A stretch of DNA of 64,000 nucleotides. Source: TPA_inf: Saccharomyces (taxonomy: Eukaryota). Numbering within the stretch: position 1 is the first letter of the stretch; each line of letters begins with the position of its first letter. Made by a program: the position numbers and the translations under genes. Of the stretch, positions 14,816-23,551 are shown piece after piece. A model generated the notes under the pieces. It did not search any database, was not told the origin of the DNA, and saw only the letters and a program-made list of their open reading frames with translations. The DNA lies in assembly GCA_000146045.2 (NCBI GenBank), contig BK006938.2, forward strand, positions 704,001 to 768,000, in the 5' to 3' direction.

Positions 14816-16303
14816 CTACAGATATTCATATCCCTTGTAGTATTCCTTAGTTCCGTTAAATGCTATAGCTTTAATAGCTATCAGCATAATATTGCCATCT
14901 TTCACGGCCAGTTTCCAGAGAGACTTTCTTAAGTAAAGCTTTAAACCAGAACAAAATCTAAGGTCAAGTGGATCAGACACGTCAATGACCCTGTCATTGA
15001 ATTTATTTTTATCAGTTAGCAAAGTTTGAACTTGAGAAATCTTAATGCCGTTTATGTCCAAATCACAGAGATATATGCATGCTGGAAGTAAATAATGAGT
15101 TTCAATTTTCGTCTGCGTACTATCGGATGGGAACCGATACTGGTAATTTTTCAACTTAGGCGCACCAGAGGGTGTATTTGGCAAATGACTTCCAAATAAG
15201 GCCTCAAACTTATAGGCGGATTCTCCAGTTATGTCTACATGGATACTTTGGCTTTCCTTATTGAGGATTATCGTACAATCAGTCGAATTTATTTGAAATA
15301 TCAACTCTCTCGGATGCTTATCTAAAAAAGGTCTCTTATAACAAAGCATATTCCAGGAATCGTTATATTTTTCAGTCATGTCAAGTTTAATCTTTTTATT
15401 TGCTGGCTGTTCACGGGTTTTTGATAGCGAGTCGCATTCATTTATGCTACAGAAATCGTCTTCAAAGTAGGGCGAGGTTGAAAATGCAGAAGAAGCTGGA
15501 AAAGTGATGCCTTTTTTTGACAAATCCTTCAATAGGAGGCAAATCTCTTCTTTCCTTGTTATTGGGTTATAGCTAATATGAGATTTGATTAGCCGCTGTT
15601 CGAGATTTAAAAGCCTGTAATAACGGCACTCTTTTATCAAGGCATTTCTTTTATTATCATCTAGATCGATGGATGCTCCTCCCAGTAACGTCAGCAAATC
15701 TTTGAAGTACTCAGAAGATCTTGGAATGTAAGGAGCAGAATGAGATGGAGGCCTTAATAGTTTTTTAGATATTATCAGCTCTTCCACATCGATATAAACT
15801 GTAGCCGCATATATTTCGAAATAATTTGGGGAATCTCCTTCTCTTCTAAATAAATTTTTCGCTATCTTGAATGATTGTCCACCAATGTTGGTAAAATAAT
15901 AGTCCGTTTCTTTCAGTAAAGATCGCAATCGCGGTAAATTGTAGTACATCGCATCTGCGAAAAGCATGGTATATTGTACTTCATCCTTAATCTCAATTAT
16001 ATATCCTTGCAAATGTTGATAGATCCATTCAAAAACTTCGGCTGATCTGTCTATGAATAGAACCTCATTTTTATTAGATTCCATGGTATCGTTATTACTG
16101 TCATCGTTATTGGAAGGAGAGCGCTTCTTAGAAAAATATTCGGTGAAGAAACTAGGACCATCCGAGCTTAAAGAAGCACCGCTGATTTTGAATAATGATT
16201 TCCCCACCTGAATCTTATACATTTTCTCGTGTGGGAGTATTTGAGGAATATTCGGATCGAAATATTCTTGTGACAAAGTTGCTACTGTTGGAGAATTTGA
16301 CAT
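14816..16303 (-). CDS. Protein of unknown function (YDR132C), 495 aa.
   Basis: Uninterrupted 495-aa ORF with ATG at 16303-16301. Position and length match YDR132C. Confidence 0.85.
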   Translation of the reverse strand: MSNSPTVATLSQEYFDPNIPQILPHEKMYKIQVGKSLFKISGASLSSDGPSFFTEYFSKKRSPSNNDDSNNDTMESNKNEVLFIDRSAEVFEWIYQHLQGYIIEIKDEVQYTMLFADAMYYNLPRLRSLLKETDYYFTNIGGQSFKIAKNLFRREGDSPNYFEIYAATVYIDVEELIISKKLLRPPSHSAPYIPRSSEYFKDLLTLLGGASIDLDDNKRNALIKECRYYRLLNLEQRLIKSHISYNPITRKEEICLLLKDLSKKGITFPASSAFSTSPYFEDDFCSINECDSLSKTREQPANKKIKLDMTEKYNDSWNMLCYKRPFLDKHPRELIFQINSTDCTIILNKESQSIHVDITGESAYKFEALFGSHLPNTPSGAPKLKNYQYRFPSDSTQTKIETHYLLPACIYLCDLDINGIKISQVQTLLTDKNKFNDRVIDVSDPLDLRFCSGLKLYLRKSLWKLAVKDGNIMLIAIKAIAFNGTKEYYKGYEYL

Positions 16304-16961
16304 TTTCTATATGATTATATTGGGAACTTTCTTTGTTGGTAATATTTACGAGTGCCACAGACCGGTCTTTAATTCGCTATCTTTCGTTAGATTATGGTAT
16401 ATAACATTCACACATAAGATATACATTTTTTTCACTGCTCAGACTATTCAATTTTATTCGAGAGGAGAATCCATTAGAATTTTGACTTAGTAAGCAATTG
16501 CGGCTTACATGATTTTCCAAGAAGTTCAGTCGCCCGTGCAACAAAGACAAAAGCAAGCTAAGAAAAATGCCAGCTCAGTGGTCCGGATAAAATCTTAAAA
16601 GGATACGTTTGTAAAAGAAGCAATGATAAGCCGGCCAGATCGTAATAATGAATCACTAATATAAAACTATTATATTTCAGAAAAGAGGAAACCGAGATAG
16701 ACTCATCGTCCGCTTATTATGTAAGATATTGAATCCATGTTCTTGATTAGCGTAAACCGACTGGGCAAACAAAAAAACATTATTTTTGAATTAACGAACC
16801 TTAAACAACCTATATTAAGATATATGATAAAAATACAATGCAACCAGTATATATAAAAAAAGTTTAGTTGCGTGTAACCTAAGAGATATTAACTTTATAT
16901 TAATATTATTATAATAAACATTTAGTTATGGAGTGTTGCCTCCTAGAATTAGAATAAGAAA

Positions 16962-17297
16962 TTACCAGAATATCTTATTAATTGAAATAAAACGATTTTG
17001 TGGAAGCTGTATTGACGGAAAAGTACTTAACCATTTTTCTAAAAATATATTAAAGAAAAGGTTGAGTAAATTACAACAATAAAGCGGCAGCACCAGCCAA
17101 CAAAGCACCGGCAGCTGGCAAAGCCTTAACAGCGGCACCAGTGTAGGAGGTAACAGTTTGAGTGCTAGAACCTTGTTGGGTTGGCTTTTCAGTTGGCTTT
17201 TCGGTTGGCTTTTCAGTTGGAGCTGGAGAAGTGGTATTCTTTGGTGCTTCAGTGGTTGGCAATGGACACCAGGTGGTGTATTAAGTGATAACGTCAT
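16962..17297 (-). other. Dubious ORF (YDR133C, 111 aa) overlapping the YDR134C pseudogene in another frame.
   Basis: Low-complexity translation (PKSQLKSQPKSQLKSQ) produced by reading the Thr/Pro/Lys repeat DNA of YDR134C out of frame. Confidence 0.6.
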
Positions 17298-17481
17298 TTA
17301 CGGTGACGGTAGCAGTGGAAACCAAAGCTGGGGAAACTGTTTCAGAACAAACGTGGTCCTCACAAGAAGTGATAGTGACCAAAGTGGTAGATTCTTCTGT
17401 GACAGTAGCAGTGGTAATGTTAGAAGCGGCGGAGGCAACAGCGGCAATAGCAGCGATAGAAGCGACGGTAGAGAATTGCAT
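17071..17481 (-). pseudogene. CCW12-paralogous GPI cell-wall protein gene interrupted by an in-frame TAA (YDR134C).
   Basis: One frame reads MQFSTVASIAAIAAVASAASNITTATVTEE...DVIT, then TAA at 17283-17281, then YTTWCPLPTTEAPKNTTSPAPTEKPTEKPTEKPTQQGSS...GAAVKALPAAGALLAGAAALLL, then stop. It has a signal peptide, a Ser/Thr-rich body and a C-terminal GPI-type hydrophobic tail, like Ccw12. Codons are strongly biased. Confidence 0.85.
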
Positions 17482-17824
17482 TTTTAATTTGTAGTTATTT
17501 TGAAGCGAACGAAAGAAGATGTTTGTTATCCTTGGTTTTTTATTCTATGAAAAAATTTTAAAAAAGAGAGTCTAGCAGAGAGAAGTCGATGAAGAACAAC
17601 CACGATCCAGCAACGGTTTATATACTTCGAGAGATGACTAAACCATCCTATATGTTGTGGAAAGTGTACACAAAAAAATTGCAAAAAAAATAGTTAGAAA
17701 AAGAAAAGTGAGATAAGTACAAGGAAAAAAAAATAACAAACACCAGAAAAATTCCTGCGCGGTTTCTGTGAAGGGGCCGTTGATTCACCCTCTGCACTGG
17801 TCCCTGAAAGGGACTACCGACCAT

Positions 17825-17878
17825 ACGCGTAGCCCCTTTTCTCACTGGAAACCATCCGAACGCCGATGGAACACGCGT
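17825..17878. promoter_or_regulatory. Pair of perfect ACGCGT (MCB/MluI) motifs 48 bp apart, inside a GC-rich block.
   Basis: acgcgt at 17825-17830 and 17873-17878. They lie about 345-400 bp upstream of the YDR134C ATG. Confidence 0.35.
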
Positions 17879-19003
17879 CTAAAAGTGAGCACGGACCGGA
17901 CTCGCGGATTTAAAAGGGCTTCCCCACTGCAGCGTGTCCTGCAGCTCAAACCCAGCCATCAATTCGAAATAGGAAAACTCCTTCCTTTTTGAGCGATCGT
18001 GTTGTAGCAGCACTTCAAAACGGATGACTTTCTCCGCACTGAAACGCATGGGCAGTCCGGCAAGAGAAAACACCGCGTCGAAGCACGGTTATTCATGTTG
18101 GAGCAGTTCGCACCATGCTATTGTTTTGAAATGGCTGCCAAAAATATTCATGTTGCACGTTTCAATGCTTGACAGAAAGGCAATATGGCGGAGAACCAGT
18201 GTGAGTTGACCCCAACAAATGAAAAAAAAAAATATAATAAAAATAAAAATAAAAAAACAAACAAAAAGTAAGTCTCCTTCAAGGACAACTGAATAGGAAG
18301 TTTGAGCCGGTTTCCTATGCCTATAGCCTTGGATGAGTGAGGAGAAAACGTGCAGTTAATAAAATTAGCATACTTTAGGTTTTAGGATGAAACTTTTTCT
18401 CCCACAATCCTTATTTGTTATGACACCAGAGTGCCTAATTCAATCGAAAAACAGATAAGGGGAATTTCTGGAATTAGGGTGACAGAATGAGCTACGTAAA
18501 ATTAACGGCAATGCGAAGGGCATCTTCATATTATTTTTCTCACCTTGCTGCTATTCTAATTGCATTTCCGTTATTAAGGTTTGCCCCTTCTCCGAAGGTA
18601 AGCTGCGGAATTTCCTGATAAGTGCATTACCCCGCATAAGGTTCCCCTTACGATACCAGAAAAGGAATCAGTGTCGATCGTATTTTCGGCATGTGGATTA
18701 TCCTTGCACCTGTTCTCCGGAGAAATGTTGGTTTTTTTCTGTAAGGGGTATGTGGTGAGGAGGTAAGCCATTATCATCGTTGCCTTCATTATATCTTTTT
18801 ATTGCTGGCCGATCTCTGATATTATGATGAATATTATGAAAAGTGTTCCTTTTTTCTTGCCTAAGTGACGTGACGTCTCCTTTCTAGGCAAGCTATGCAG
18901 CCAGTATCTCGTTGAAAATTAAAGTACTTTTCTTATTTACTTATTTATTTTATCCATCCTACGTACCAGATTGTGCGGGACAGGTTTTTATTAGTTTCAC
19001 AGT

Positions 19004-22000
19004 TTAATTTTCATTGACCAAACCAGCCTCCATGCACAGTGAATAGAACAATGATTTGTTATCACTTAATAACTGGCCCGGAGAGTCAAACTCGGCTACT
19101 TTACCATTGTCCAACACTATGATTCTATCACTGTCCATTATCGTGTTCAGTCTATGCGCGATGGTCAAGATAGTTCTGTCCTTGAAAGCAGTACGAATCG
19201 TCTCTTGGACGACTTTATCTGTCTCCACGTCGACTGCGGCCGTGGCTTCATCAAGCACCAAAATCTTTGATGGAACCAACATTGCTCTTGCAAGACATAA
19301 TAATTGTCTTTGTCCAACACTTAAGTTGCCACCACCTTCGGTTAGTTGGGCATCTAATCCGTCATTGCTCATTGATAGCACGTGTTCTTTCAAATGAGAA
19401 AGTTCCAATGCCCTCCAAATAGCTTCATCAGTGTATTGGTTAATGGGATCAATGTTCTCACGAACAGTGCCCTCAAAAACTTGAGAATCCTGAGGTATGA
19501 TTGACAATTTATGTCTCAAATCATATAACCCAATCTCGTTGATGGCAATGTTGTCGATTACGATGTTTCCCTCGCTAGCCTCAATCATCCTGAATAATGC
19601 TAGCGTTAATGAGGATTTTCCCGCACCCGTTCTACCCACGATACCAACTTTTTCATTTGGTTTAATGTGTATATTAATGTGCTTCAGAACAAGATCAAGC
19701 TCCGGCCTATAACGAGTGGAATAATTATTAAACTTTATATCACCCTGGCTCGGCCATTCTTTGGGTGGTCTGTGGCCTTCAACTATTAAAGGTGCCTCGC
19801 TCTTCAAATCAGCATATTCCTTTATTCTTTCCACTGAAACAATATTCGTTTCAACTTCCACAGTCATTCTAACAATCCAATTTAACGTTTGAGTGATTTG
19901 TAAAGCATAGCTTAATGATAAACCCACCATACCTGCCGTTAATGTGCCTTGTTTTAGTCTAAAAACGGATAAAGTTGCAGCACCTAGAATGATAATTGAA
20001 CCAATAAGTTCCAACCTATATGCTAGCCAACGGTTAGCATTGATAGAGGGATAGAACGCACTCATGTTATTATCAATGCGGCATTGATTAATGTGGGAAA
20101 ACCTTTTCTGTTGAGAATAACCTCTAACCGTTGCAAGGCCACCCAAAGTCTCTTGGAAATGAGAGTAGATTGGAGACCTAGTAATAGAGTCTAAACGACG
20201 CAACTCCCTTGATGTTCTCAGGTAATACTGCTGGTAGTAGATGTAAAACACACTTAGTGGAATGATAATGAAGATAAATTGCCATGTCGTCGCACAGATA
20301 ACCGTAATAGTGAATGTGACTTTCACTGCATTGACGAAAAACTGAGAAAATGTTCTTCCTAATAAAGCATCCACTTTGTATATGTCATTTGAGAATCTGT
20401 TTAGAATTCTACCGATTGGTGTTGTTTCAAAAAACGTCATTGGGGCTCTCAACACAGAGTTTGTCATCAAGTTGTGTAAATATTTGGAGGCATGAATGGT
20501 ACAAAAAACCCAGAGAACGATTGTCTGGATTAATGTTGCCAGTGCTGAACCAATACCAAGTGCAAAATAAATGGCCAAGTAACGCGCGGCATTTGGATTA
20601 GATCCATAGCGGCTATTAACTTCAGACCAATGTTTCAACCAAACGTTACCCATAACAGAGAGGAACATCGATATAACAATAAACAATATGAATACACAAA
20701 CGCTTTTCGGGTTGCAAGCTTTAGCGTACTCTAGGTAAATGTTCCACTTTACTTTTCCCTGTTCACGATGCTCTCTTTTAGCAATATTTTCATCGTCACC
20801 AAAATCGATGCTTCCCAAAGTTGCATCACTGGCCCTCCTTAAACTTATGGCGTCAGAGTTGCCAAAATCCAAATCATTTAATTTCTGCAGTTGTTCCAGC
20901 TCTCCTTCTACAGGTATACTACTTTCTCGAACTGAGCTTTCAGAGGAGTCACCGAATTCATTCGACTTACCGTTATTTTTTTTACCATAGTTGTTGAGCA
21001 ATTTCCATAATGGCGAATCAGCGTCCTTCGTAATCTCATCATATGTACCCTGCTGTGTGATTTCTCCATTATCTAATAATGCAATAGAATCTGCGATGGA
21101 TAACGCGCTCACCTTATTAGTGGCTAATACCTTCGTTTTTGTATGTAATAAACCATTTGGACCCAACACATGTTCGATCAAGTGCCTGGCAACGTGTTCA
21201 TCAACAGCTGCCAAAGGATCATCAAGTAAATAAGTGTCAGCTCTCGCATAAACTGCTCTTGCTAAAGACAAACGAGCTTTTTGTCCTCCAGATAAGGAGA
21301 TCCCTTTCTCGCCAACTAATGTCTTATCTCCATCCATCAAAATTGCAAGATCAATAGTTAACGCACAGGCCTTGATCGTTTTTTCGTAAAATTCCGCGTC
21401 GTATCTATGCCCAAATAAAATGTTTTCCTTTACAGTACCATTCATTATCCATGGAACTTGTGAAACATAAGCAACAGAACCATGAACGGTGGCGAAACCT
21501 TTAACCCTGAATAGATCACCTAACATGCATGACAATAGAGCTGTTTTACCACTGCCAACTTTACCAACAATACAGGTCAAATTTCCTTTTTTAGCTTGGA
21601 AATTAATATTCTTTAAGGCTACTTTGTATTCCGGTTTCCGTTGCCATAAAAAGGTAGCATCATCTCCAATGTTAATGGCTACATCGCCAATATTTTTTAC
21701 TTTTGGTAAACGCTGAACCGAATCTGGTTGTAGCTCTTCATTGGTAAAGAATGTAAATAATCTACCAATAGAAACAGAAGCTTCGATAAAAGAATTTAAA
21801 ACCATAGGAATAATCATTAGTGGGAATGAGAGCAGGTTGAACAGAGTCAAAGCAGGGAAAACTAAGTCAGTAGTCAATGCTCTATCCTCAGTATAAACAA
21901 ATACAGCAAAGGTACAACATGAAACAAGGAATGGTACTATATTGAACTGAAAACTTGTCACAGCCATATAACATCCTAGTTTTGTAAGATTTTTTAACTC

Positions 22001-23551
22001 TTTGTTATTTCTTACTTCTTCTAGCTTTTCCCTATAAGGCTTCTCCCATGCATATAACTTCAAAGATTTAATATTGTTTAGTATTTCACTTATAACACGG
22101 GTCCTTTCATCTTTGTACTTCATCTGGGATTTTTGCAACTTCTTTTGTATCCTCATCAAAAATGAGTTCAATGGCATCATAATAACTAGTATAATCACGC
22201 CAACCCACATGGAATTTCCCAACAACTTATACAGAGAATATAAGCAAATAATGATTTGAAAAGGCCCTGACCATATTAAATTTAGCCATTGTGTTAAATC
22301 TTGTAATTTTTGAACATCCACACTCATGAGATTGACAATGTCACCGGTAGAGGAAAGTCCAGAAGCCTCATTAGATAGCACTAAGGATTTTTGATATATT
22401 AAAGCCGTTAGGGCGCTCTTAATATACATGCCTGTGTTGAAGACATTCAGGAAATATTGATGCAGGACAGATGTCTGAGTAAAGCCCACCAGAAACATAG
22501 CAAACGCAATCAAAAACCCTCTTACAATGGGTAATTTTTGTGGGTGGTTATTTTCAAACCCTTGAAGAGAAGAATGGTCATCCTGTCTCTCACTGTTATA
22601 GTCTGTGACGAACTTGATTAAAATCCTTAGTAGTTGTGGTTGAGTAAATGCTAGAACATCATGAATTGCTTTAAAGAATGCGGCTAAAAGCATTTTAGAT
22701 CCAAAAGTTCTGCATATAGCCCATGATAATGAAGGATTTGATTTTTGCTTCAACTCATTTTCCCAGTTTTTCTCCAATTTTTGAGAGAGTTCTTCACTAC
22801 TAAAGTTCCTCGGTAATTTATATAAATCTGCTTCCACTAAGTATTTTTCATAGCCAGTTTTCATCAAACCTGACATCCAAGAGAAGGTAATCCTGGAAAA
22901 TATGTTTGCGCTATCGTATGGATTTGGTTTTCTTCTTGTTAAAGTTTGATGTATGTGTTGATGTGGCATTAGCGGCTTCTTTGGAAGAGCTTCAAGTAAC
23001 AGGATACTGGCACATGTTATTACTTGGAATAACGTTAGTATGAAACCCGTTTGTCCGGAATACCAAATGCCTTCGTAGGTGTGTCTAATTAGAATATTTA
23101 TTAGTTTAGCAAAATTACCGAATGTTTCAAAAAGCCAATAGAATAAAAGTACCGTATTGGCTACAACTGATCTATCGTATTCTATCCAGTGTAAGGCTAA
23201 AGCAACAAATAAAGATAACATTGTAGAAGCATATTGACTTACAATGGTAAAGTTTTCCGCTTCTTCTTTAGAAATATTTAAAGACGCAAGTGAAACAAAC
23301 GCTATCTCCAACAGAACTAGTGCCATCCTAGAGACAATAATCCAATTCCGCCTATATTTGATGCCAGAGTGTTTTTTCTTGCAAAGGTTAACTAAATCTC
23401 TGATACCGAAGGTTATCATGAAAATTGCTGATAGATTTAGGATCACACCGTCGATGAAGCATTGAGTAAAGTCACCGTAAAAGGATATAGGTCCAAACCC
23501 TTCAGGAGATCTACAGAGCTTGCAGGCCCATGAAACAAGATTACCAGCCAT
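19004..23551 (-). CDS. YCF1: Vacuolar glutathione S-conjugate ABC transporter (ABCC/MRP family), 1515 aa.
   Basis: Two Walker A motifs (GKVGSGKT, GRTGAGKSS) and two ABC signatures (LSGGQKARLSLARA, LSVGQRQLLCLARA). Two membrane-spanning domains plus an N-terminal extension. Length matches. Confidence 0.96.
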   Translation of the reverse strand: MAGNLVSWACKLCRSPEGFGPISFYGDFTQCFIDGVILNLSAIFMITFGIRDLVNLCKKKHSGIKYRRNWIIVSRMALVLLEIAFVSLASLNISKEEAENFTIVSQYASTMLSLFVALALHWIEYDRSVVANTVLLFYWLFETFGNFAKLINILIRHTYEGIWYSGQTGFILTLFQVITCASILLLEALPKKPLMPHQHIHQTLTRRKPNPYDSANIFSRITFSWMSGLMKTGYEKYLVEADLYKLPRNFSSEELSQKLEKNWENELKQKSNPSLSWAICRTFGSKMLLAAFFKAIHDVLAFTQPQLLRILIKFVTDYNSERQDDHSSLQGFENNHPQKLPIVRGFLIAFAMFLVGFTQTSVLHQYFLNVFNTGMYIKSALTALIYQKSLVLSNEASGLSSTGDIVNLMSVDVQKLQDLTQWLNLIWSGPFQIIICLYSLYKLLGNSMWVGVIILVIMMPLNSFLMRIQKKLQKSQMKYKDERTRVISEILNNIKSLKLYAWEKPYREKLEEVRNNKELKNLTKLGCYMAVTSFQFNIVPFLVSCCTFAVFVYTEDRALTTDLVFPALTLFNLLSFPLMIIPMVLNSFIEASVSIGRLFTFFTNEELQPDSVQRLPKVKNIGDVAINIGDDATFLWQRKPEYKVALKNINFQAKKGNLTCIVGKVGSGKTALLSCMLGDLFRVKGFATVHGSVAYVSQVPWIMNGTVKENILFGHRYDAEFYEKTIKACALTIDLAILMDGDKTLVGEKGISLSGGQKARLSLARAVYARADTYLLDDPLAAVDEHVARHLIEHVLGPNGLLHTKTKVLATNKVSALSIADSIALLDNGEITQQGTYDEITKDADSPLWKLLNNYGKKNNGKSNEFGDSSESSVRESSIPVEGELEQLQKLNDLDFGNSDAISLRRASDATLGSIDFGDDENIAKREHREQGKVKWNIYLEYAKACNPKSVCVFILFIVISMFLSVMGNVWLKHWSEVNSRYGSNPNAARYLAIYFALGIGSALATLIQTIVLWVFCTIHASKYLHNLMTNSVLRAPMTFFETTPIGRILNRFSNDIYKVDALLGRTFSQFFVNAVKVTFTITVICATTWQFIFIIIPLSVFYIYYQQYYLRTSRELRRLDSITRSPIYSHFQETLGGLATVRGYSQQKRFSHINQCRIDNNMSAFYPSINANRWLAYRLELIGSIIILGAATLSVFRLKQGTLTAGMVGLSLSYALQITQTLNWIVRMTVEVETNIVSVERIKEYADLKSEAPLIVEGHRPPKEWPSQGDIKFNNYSTRYRPELDLVLKHINIHIKPNEKVGIVGRTGAGKSSLTLALFRMIEASEGNIVIDNIAINEIGLYDLRHKLSIIPQDSQVFEGTVRENIDPINQYTDEAIWRALELSHLKEHVLSMSNDGLDAQLTEGGGNLSVGQRQLLCLARAMLVPSKILVLDEATAAVDVETDKVVQETIRTAFKDRTILTIAHRLNTIMDSDRIIVLDNGKVAEFDSPGQLLSDNKSLFYSLCMEAGLVNEN

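What the first reader, a model, noticed from the sequence alone, without database searches (positions are those of the whole stretch)
17071..17481. YDR134C: a CCW12-like GPI cell-wall gene disabled by a single in-frame TAA, still carrying highly biased codons
One reading frame encodes a signal peptide, a Thr/Ser-rich mature region, a (TEKP)3 15-bp tandem repeat and a C-terminal GPI-type hydrophobic tail. The only defect is one TAA at 17283-17281, between ...DVIT and YTTWCPLPTT....

Codon usage on both sides is strongly biased toward preferred yeast codons (GCT, GGT, TTG, CCA, AAG, ACC, ACT, GTT). That argues the gene was highly expressed until recently, or is still expressed. Some strains may carry an intact allele, or rely on stop-codon readthrough. 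The 1.5-kb promoter region upstream is also atypical; see the next finding.
Basis: partly seen in the sequence, partly recalled or inferred. Interest (0 to 1): 0.5.

Follow-up and report, generated by a model that had tools for sequence, protein, structure and literature searches.

The report
Lab-strain nonsense allele of CCW22
This is the yeast cell-wall gene CCW22 (YDR134C), intact in other strains and sister species but cut short in the laboratory reference lineage by one C-to-T change that makes a stop codon; this is real, but it is already known and ordinary.

Summary
Window 17071-17481 (- strand) encodes a 136-codon CCW12-like protein interrupted only by TAA at 17283-17281. One detail is wrong: the TEKP repeat unit is 12 bp, not 15 bp.

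Every other sequence examined has CAA (Gln) at codon 67. This covers 12 S. cerevisiae sequences, S. kudriavzevii, S. eubayanus, S. uvarum and the paralog CCW12; S. paradoxus has Gln at the protein level. One metagenome contig carries a coding sequence identical to the window except for that single base. The TAA is therefore one C-to-T transition on an otherwise intact allele.

It is not a sequencing error. Three independent assemblies read here carry it on DNA 100% identical to the window.

The extreme codon bias (93% preferred codons, against 34-60% for other long ORFs in the window) is inherited from a strongly selected, highly expressed gene. Orthologs show dN/dS of 0.12-0.15. In strain SK1, CCW22 is reported as the most abundant meiotic mRNA.

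In laboratory strains the transcript is still made and is reported as a nonsense-mediated decay substrate. The 66-residue product lacks Cys72, the repeats and the GPI signal.

I found no support for programmed readthrough. The finding is already known and of low interest.

The parts
17071..17481 (-). CCW22 / YDR134C reading frame: 136 codons plus the terminal TAA, interrupted at codon 67
   Evidence: Translation. Pfam PF13928 at E=6e-16. 97-99% identical to intact S. cerevisiae proteins P0001, P0004 and P0065. Syntenic with YCF1 and YDR132C in other strains and species.
17281..17283 (-). TAA nonsense codon 67. It is CAA (Gln) in all other alleles, in the orthologs and in CCW12.
   Evidence: DNA alignments A2 and A5. 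Ortholog codons. L020 differs from the window coding sequence only here, T199C.
17284..17481 (-). The 66-codon open frame that remains. It would give a signal peptide plus 46 mature residues, with no Cys72, no repeats and no GPI signal.
   Evidence: The same 66-aa product is deposited as CAA88216.1 'unknown [Saccharomyces cerevisiae]' and is called in 42 blocks of assemblies.
17422..17481 (-). Signal peptide, about codons 1-20
   Evidence: Hydrophobic N-terminus. It aligns with the Ccw12 signal sequence. The CCW22 signal peptide drove alpha-amylase secretion experimentally (PMC9839866).
17257..17388 (-). Flocculin type 3 repeat (residues 32-75), the three-beta-strand core holding C40, C45 and C72. 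The stop cuts it at residue 67.
   Evidence: The structural description of Ccw12/Ccw22 is in PMC11583750.
17180..17220 (-). 12-bp minisatellite encoding TEKP, 3.4 copies. Copy number varies between strains and species.
   Evidence: TRF. By protein length, the 128-aa alleles (including EC1118) lack two units relative to the window, the common 132-aa allele has 2 units, the window and L020 have 3, and S. paradoxus has 4.
17071..17139 (-). C-terminal GPI-attachment signal (residues 115-136, GAAVKALPAAGALLAGAAALLL) plus the natural stop
   Evidence: It differs at one residue from the Ccw12 C-terminus. Ccw12 residues 104-133 are sufficient for covalent wall anchoring (PMC11583750). Hydrophobicity.
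17617..17624 (-). TATA box TATATAAA, about 136 nt upstream of the ATG
   Evidence: It sits in a block (AGTATATAAACCGT) that is invariant in S. cerevisiae, S. kudriavzevii, S. eubayanus and S. uvarum.
17484..17498 (-). 5'-UTR mini-uORF AUA ACU ACA AAU UAA, starting at -17
   Evidence: Read directly from the sequence. It matches the near-cognate AUA at -17 and the uORF described for CCW22 in preprint 10.64898/2026.01.15.699792. The AUA is conserved in 4 species, but the uORF stop is not.
16770..17000 (-). Conserved non-coding block 70-300 nt downstream of the stop. It may be part of a long 3' UTR isoform; this is inferred.
   Evidence: 64-80% of columns are invariant across 4 species, as high as in the coding sequence, with poorly conserved DNA beyond it. 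Two transcript 3' ends are reported (PMC11649920). A functional 3' UTR is reported.

Best explanation
This is a recent nonsense (potential null) allele of the functional gene CCW22. CCW22 is the whole-genome-duplication paralog of CCW12 and encodes a small, glycosylated, GPI-anchored cell-wall protein. The null allele is specific to the reference laboratory lineage.

Shown here: one C-to-T transition turned codon 67 from CAA (Gln) into TAA, and nothing else in the coding sequence is damaged.

Taken from the literature: the strong promoter still drives transcription, and because the stop comes early the mRNA is a nonsense-mediated decay substrate.

Inferred: translation ends after 66 residues. 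That product keeps the signal peptide but loses the end of the flocculin type 3 fold (including Cys72), the TEKP repeats and the GPI signal. It therefore cannot be attached to the wall. The extreme codon bias on both sides of the stop is left over from strong translational selection on the intact gene, because too little time has passed for it to decay.
For: - **CAA everywhere else.** CAA is found at codon 67 in 10 S. cerevisiae genome assemblies including YJM789 and in 2 metagenome contigs. It is also found in S. kudriavzevii, S. eubayanus and S. uvarum and in CCW12. S. paradoxus and EC1118 have Gln at the protein level.
- **A single-base difference.** The L020 coding sequence equals the window coding sequence except for T199C.
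- **Not a sequencing error.** The truncated 66-aa ORF is called in 42 blocks of independent assemblies. Three of these were read and are 100% identical to the window over 6.2 kb, whereas strains with the intact allele are 98.6-99.2% identical.
- **Purifying selection.** dN/dS is 0.12-0.15 against three sister species, and orthologs have 0.87-0.94 preferred codons.
- **Conserved gene order.** Synteny is kept across strains and species.
- **Expression.** In SK1, CCW22 is the most abundant meiotic mRNA, its protein is detected, and it takes up to 4.2% of ribosome occupancy (preprint 10.64898/2026.01.15.699792). [quoted passage not shown]
Against: No population-wide genotype frequencies could be computed, so 'confined to the S288C lineage' rests on the assemblies read here: 3 truncated-allele loci, all identical to the window. 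No ribosome-profiling or proteomic data for the stop-containing allele were examined, so low-level readthrough is not excluded. Wall anchoring of Ccw22 itself is inferred from its near-identity to the Ccw12 tether, not shown.
Confidence: 0.93

Rival explanations
1. The TAA is read through, either as a programmed event or by suppression (for example in [PSI+] cells). The laboratory strain would then still make useful amounts of full-length Ccw22, and the codon bias would still be under selection.
For: The frame is perfectly intact downstream, with preferred-codon fraction 0.94. The transcript is still produced in laboratory strains. Stop-codon suppression does occur in yeast and is noted as a general caveat for potential null alleles (PMC12157680).
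Against: The stop is not conserved: every other allele and ortholog examined has CAA or Gln. It is therefore not an evolved recoding site. The intact downstream frame is explained simply by the single-base distance from an intact allele. From general knowledge, UAA is the least leaky stop codon in yeast, and the downstream UAC ACC does not match the CAR-YYA readthrough motif. The mRNA behaves as an NMD substrate, which implies efficient termination. None of the 19 held papers that mention YDR134C or CCW22 was retrieved as a readthrough study; 10 of them were opened at the passages naming the gene.
Confidence: 0.04
2. This is an old, decaying pseudogene or gene remnant that has been dispensable across the species since the duplication because CCW12 covers its function.
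For: The highly expressed paralog CCW12 is 81% identical (PMC11583750). The reference genome tolerates the loss.
Against: There is only one lesion, one nucleotide away from an intact allele. Intact alleles occur in all other strains and in 4 sister species, at a conserved syntenic position. dN/dS is 0.12-0.15 and codon bias is retained in all orthologs. In SK1 the gene is abundantly expressed and its protein is detected.
Confidence: 0.02
3. The TAA is a sequencing or assembly error in this copy.
For: It is a single-base difference from the other alleles.
Against: The same 66-aa ORF is called in 42 blocks of independently assembled sequencing runs. Three loci were read and are identical to the window. 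It is also in two separate NCBI protein records. An experimental paper uses the early stop as a property of the transcript.
Confidence: 0.01

Closest known systems
CCW22 (YDR134C) intact alleles in other S. cerevisiae strains (YJM789, EC1118, SK1) and orthologs in S. paradoxus, S. kudriavzevii, S. eubayanus and S. uvarum
   Same: Same locus and the same neighbours (YCF1 upstream, YDR132C downstream). Protein identity is 97-99% within the species. The signal peptide, flocculin type 3 core, TEKP repeats and GPI tail are the same.
   Different: The window has TAA instead of CAA at codon 67. It has 3 TEKP units, whereas the 128-aa alleles such as EC1118 lack two units relative to the window, most strains read here have 2, and S. 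paradoxus has 4.
CCW12 (YLR110C), an abundant GPI-anchored cell-wall mannoprotein and the whole-genome-duplication paralog
   Same: It has a PF13928 core with cysteines in the same places, a nearly identical signal peptide and GPI tail, CAA at the equivalent codon, and very high codon bias (PMC11583750).
   Different: The repeat region differs: CCW12 has repeats R1/R2 with a third N-glycosylation site, whereas CCW22 has TEKP units. CCW12 sits at a different locus and is intact in the reference strain. CCW22 has a reported meiosis-linked translation programme.
Naturally occurring 'potential null alleles' in S288C, as defined in 'Core gene set of the species Saccharomyces cerevisiae' (PMC12157680)
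   Same: A single stop codon in a gene that sits at its normal location and is intact in other strains. By that paper's definition it is revertible and is an allele rather than a pseudogene.
   Different: Nothing in kind. This case stands out only because the affected gene has exceptionally high codon bias and expression.

Membership tests
Ccw12 family / Flocculin type 3 repeat (Pfam PF13928) | Significant match to the PF13928 profile above the gathering threshold | tested here: met
   59 bits against a cut-off of 21.9 bits, E=6e-16, residues 32-75, covering profile positions 1-45 of 45. All 62 homologs carry PF13928.
Ccw12 family / Flocculin type 3 repeat (Pfam PF13928) | Three conserved cysteines (C40, C45, C72) in the three-beta-strand core | tested here: met
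   The conceptual full-length frame has Cys at 40, 45 and 72, aligned with Ccw12. The 66-residue product actually encoded lacks C72.
CCW22 ortholog group (the YDR134C locus) | Conserved position between YCF1 and YDR132C | tested here: met
   The same flanking genes are found in 10 S. cerevisiae assemblies, S. kudriavzevii, S. eubayanus and S. uvarum.
GPI-anchored cell-wall protein | Cleavable N-terminal signal peptide | tested here: met
   Hydrophobic residues 1-18, aligned to the Ccw12 signal sequence. The CCW22 signal peptide supported alpha-amylase secretion (PMC9839866).
GPI-anchored cell-wall protein | C-terminal omega site with small residues, a spacer and a hydrophobic tail | tested here: met
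   The tail YTGAAVKALPAAGALLAGAAALLL differs at one residue from Ccw12. The Ccw12 tail, residues 104-133, is sufficient for anchoring (PMC11583750). No dedicated GPI predictor was available. In the window allele this signal lies downstream of the stop.
GPI-anchored cell-wall protein | Actual covalent attachment of the protein to beta-1,6-glucan | not testable with these tools
   This needs cell-wall fractionation and mass spectrometry in a strain carrying the CAA allele.
Pseudogene / gene remnant (decayed former gene) | Several disabling lesions, relaxed constraint, and no intact allele in the species | tested here: not met
   There is one lesion only, T199 against C in L020. Intact alleles are common. 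dN/dS is 0.12-0.15.
Programmed stop-codon readthrough gene | The stop codon is conserved in orthologs, with coding constraint downstream of it | tested here: not met
   No ortholog or other allele has a stop at codon 67; all have CAA or Gln.
Nonsense-mediated decay substrate | An early termination codon followed by a long downstream region, with Upf1 association or dependence | tested here: inconclusive
   The sequence feature is present: the stop is at codon 67 of 136. Upf1 association comes only from the literature (PMC11649920) and could not be tested with these tools.

The most novel reading that the evidence does not exclude
Loss of CCW22 may be a phenotypically relevant lesion of the S288C laboratory lineage. 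In SK1, CCW22 is reported as the most abundant meiotic mRNA and engages up to 4.2% of ribosomes at meiotic exit. The TAA allele, with its NMD-depleted transcript, could therefore contribute to the reference strain's differences in meiotic progression, spore-wall quality, cell-wall properties or secretory load. A less likely variant is that low-level readthrough or the secreted 46-residue fragment keeps some function.
Probability: 0.15. Interest if true: 0.35.

Novelty: already known. Interest (0 to 1): 0.12.

Why it matters
The practical value is a caution for annotation and for experiments. The reference genome carries a null allele of a gene that is intact, strongly selected and very highly expressed in other strains. 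Work in S288C-derived strains therefore cannot see Ccw22 protein function, such as a possible partnership with Ccw12 or a role in late meiosis and spore formation. Proteomic searches against the S288C reference may also miss its peptides. It is a clean textbook case in which codon bias, a single-base distance to an intact allele and ortholog constraint together date a lesion as very recent. It opens no new biological question.

Tried and rejected
1. **5'UTR-3'UTR pairing.** I tried to reproduce by thermodynamics the pairing reported for CCW22. The best RNAduplex between the 64-nt 5' leader and 310 nt of 3' flank was about -12 kcal/mol. 96% of shuffled leaders did at least as well, and the predicted partners differed between species. 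This gives no computational support either way. A whole-mRNA fold gave z=-2.5 from only 20 shuffles and did not show the interaction.
2. **Structure in the conserved 3' block.** RNAalifold found only 1 compensatory pair among 51 and a positive covariation term. The block is too conserved to test.
3. **Known RNA genes in the flanks.** Rfam at E<=1 and ARAGORN over 16200-19100 found no credible RNA gene.
4. **Literature dead ends.** The held text of the 2001 re-annotation paper does not contain its YDR134C passage, and no supplements are held. No supplements are held for the core-gene-set preprint, so I could not check whether it lists this allele. One literature query was malformed.
5. **Rejected readings.** Sequencing error, old pseudogene and programmed readthrough were considered and rejected; see the rival explanations.
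6. **Block counts are not allele frequencies.** The counts of 146 blocks for the 132-aa allele and 42 for the 66-aa ORF reflect what has been sequenced, and laboratory strains are over-represented.

Full report
**1. What is in the sequence**

On the - strand, 17481-17071 reads as ATG, 65 further sense codons, TAA (17283-17281), 69 sense codons, then TAA. With codon 67 read as a sense codon, the 136-residue product has these features:
- a hydrophobic N-terminus (residues 1-18, mean Kyte-Doolittle 1.56);
- N-glycosylation sequons at N21 and N82;
- cysteines at 40, 45 and 72;
- a mature region that is 38% Ser+Thr;
- three TEKP units;
- a hydrophobic C-terminal tail, ALPAAGALLAGAAALLL (mean 2.05).

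Residues 32-75 match the Pfam flocculin type 3 repeat PF13928 at 59 bits (cut-off 21.9 bits, E=6e-16). The stop therefore falls inside the only folded domain.

Tandem Repeats Finder gives the repeat a 12-bp period with 3.4 copies at 17180-17220. A published minisatellite table also lists '3 x 12' for CCW12/YDR134c (PMC2566889).

Preferred codons make up 0.93 of the frame: 0.92 upstream of the stop and 0.94 downstream. The 26 other ORFs of at least 150 aa in the window score 0.34-0.60. The list of 23 preferred yeast codons is from my own knowledge of the standard set.

**2. Identity and context**

A search of 5.8 billion proteins returned 62 homologs, all carrying PF13928. They include:
- intact S. 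cerevisiae proteins of 132 aa (P0001) and 128 aa (P0004);
- orthologs named 'covalently bound cell wall protein 22' or 'YDR134C-like' in S. kudriavzevii, S. eubayanus and S. uvarum;
- the paralog Ccw12 (P0011).

S. paradoxus (140 aa) and the wine strain EC1118 (128 aa) were added through the cluster look-up.

In ten S. cerevisiae genome assemblies, including YJM789, and in three sister species, the gene lies between YCF1 (window 19004-23551) and the BTB-domain gene at window 14816-16303. The locus is therefore CCW22/YDR134C, described in the literature as the whole-genome-duplication paralog of CCW12 with 81% identity (PMC11583750).

**3. Which codon the TAA replaces, and how old the lesion is**

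At the DNA level, all ten assemblies have CAA where the window has TAA. So do two metagenome contigs, S. kudriavzevii, S. eubayanus and S. uvarum, and CCW12. S. paradoxus and EC1118 have Gln at the protein level. More distant yeasts have Glu or Lys at this position.

Against the common 132-aa allele, the window differs by four changes: C199T, one extra 12-bp unit, and two synonymous changes. Metagenome contig L020 (OCVT010001867.1) is 99.58% identical to the window over 9.1 kb. It carries the three-unit allele with both synonymous variants, and its coding sequence differs from the window at position 199 only. The window allele is thus exactly one C-to-T transition away from an intact allele that exists in an independent sample.

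The stop is not a sequencing error:
- The 66-aa ORF is called in 42 blocks of independently assembled sequencing runs.
- The three loci read are 100% identical to the window over 6.2 kb, whereas strains with the intact allele are 98.6-99.2% identical.
- The same 66-aa product is in NCBI as CAA88216.1 and CAI6411235.1.

**4. Why the codons are still biased**

The gene is under purifying selection. dN/dS is 0.12-0.15 between S. cerevisiae and each of three sister species, and the orthologs have 0.87-0.94 preferred codons.

Published data explain that selection. [quoted passage not shown] Ccw22-FLAG protein is detected, and ribosome occupancy rises to 4.2% at meiotic exit (preprint 10.64898/2026.01.15.699792). 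The K. phaffii homolog is likewise among that yeast's most highly differentially expressed co-translationally translocated proteins.

A lesion one base old has had no time to erode codon usage. The equal bias on both sides of the stop is expected and needs no continuing translation of the downstream half.

**5. How the window allele most likely behaves**

- **Shown by sequence.** The promoter core is intact. The TATATAAA at 17624-17617 sits in a block that is invariant in four species. The 5' leader contains AUA ACU ACA AAU UAA at -17 to -3 (17498-17484), which matches the near-cognate uORF described in the preprint.
- **From the literature.** In laboratory strains the CCW22 transcript is present, associates with Upf1 and Pab1, has two 3' ends, and is described as a good NMD substrate because of its early stop codon (PMC11649920).
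- **Inferred.** Termination at codon 67 yields a signal peptide plus 46 residues. This product lacks the last strand region of the fold with Cys72, which is proposed to form interchain disulfides. It also lacks all TEKP units and the GPI signal. That signal differs at one residue from the Ccw12 tail, which has been shown to be sufficient for wall anchoring. The product cannot be wall-anchored, so the allele is functionally null for a wall protein. There is no in-frame ATG downstream of the stop, so the C-terminal half cannot be made on its own from an AUG.

**6. Rival explanations**

- **Programmed readthrough is not supported.** The stop is not conserved in any relative. From general knowledge, the UAA U context is unfavourable. 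The mRNA behaves as an NMD target.
- **An old pseudogene is excluded.** There is a single lesion, intact alleles are common, and the orthologs are under constraint.
- **Terminology.** By the definitions of PMC12157680, this is a 'potential null allele', not a pseudogene.
- **Recollection, not a tool result.** My recollection is that the Saccharomyces Genome Database already states that S288C has an in-frame stop at codon 67 that encodes glutamine in other strains.

**7. Verdict**

Interest is low. The only open angle is whether this lineage-specific loss matters for the laboratory strain's meiotic, spore-wall or cell-wall phenotypes. That question needs allele-swap experiments.

Noticed in passing
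window 16770-17000 (- strand), 70-300 nt downstream of the CCW22 stop: This non-coding block is 64-80% invariant across S. cerevisiae, S. kudriavzevii, S. eubayanus and S. uvarum. That is as conserved as the coding sequence, while the next 150 nt (16604-16753) are only 12-20% invariant. There is no Rfam or tRNA hit and no usable covariation. It may be a functional long 3' UTR of CCW22 or an upstream element of YDR132C.
   Followed up: partly
P0030 (S. cerevisiae strain 'ANL' gene model); its N-terminus corresponds to window ~17760-17860 (- strand): The N-terminus of this gene model is translated from the CCW22 promoter region. Its mature part mixes CCW12-type residues (D63, no Pro before TTEAP, AAAK) with CCW22-type TEKP repeats. 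It could be a CCW12/CCW22 gene-conversion chimera combined with an annotation artefact.
   Followed up: no
window 16962-17297 (- strand): A 111-aa ATG ORF overlaps the C-terminal half and 3' flank of CCW22 in another frame. It is almost certainly a by-product of the CCW22 sequence. From memory, it is the dubious ORF YDR133C.
   Followed up: no
window 17180-17220 and the equivalent positions in L001-L010, L019, L020, P0064 and P0065: The TEKP 12-bp minisatellite varies in copy number. The 128-aa alleles (P0004; EC1118 P0065) lack two units relative to the window, most S. cerevisiae assemblies read have 2 units, the window and L020 have 3, and S. paradoxus has 4.
   Followed up: yes
window ~17750-18130 (- strand), CCW22 upstream region: A G+C-rich stretch holds two ACGCGT (MluI-box-like) sites, near 17877 and 17825. 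It shows moderate conservation peaks of 40-58% invariant columns in an otherwise weakly conserved 1.5-kb intergenic region, whose length is kept at 1.5-1.65 kb in sister species.
   Followed up: partly
window 17484-17498 (- strand): The near-cognate AUA at -17 is conserved in four species. The downstream uORF stop is not: in S. kudriavzevii the AUA is in frame with the main ATG, and in S. eubayanus the frame runs past it.
   Followed up: partly
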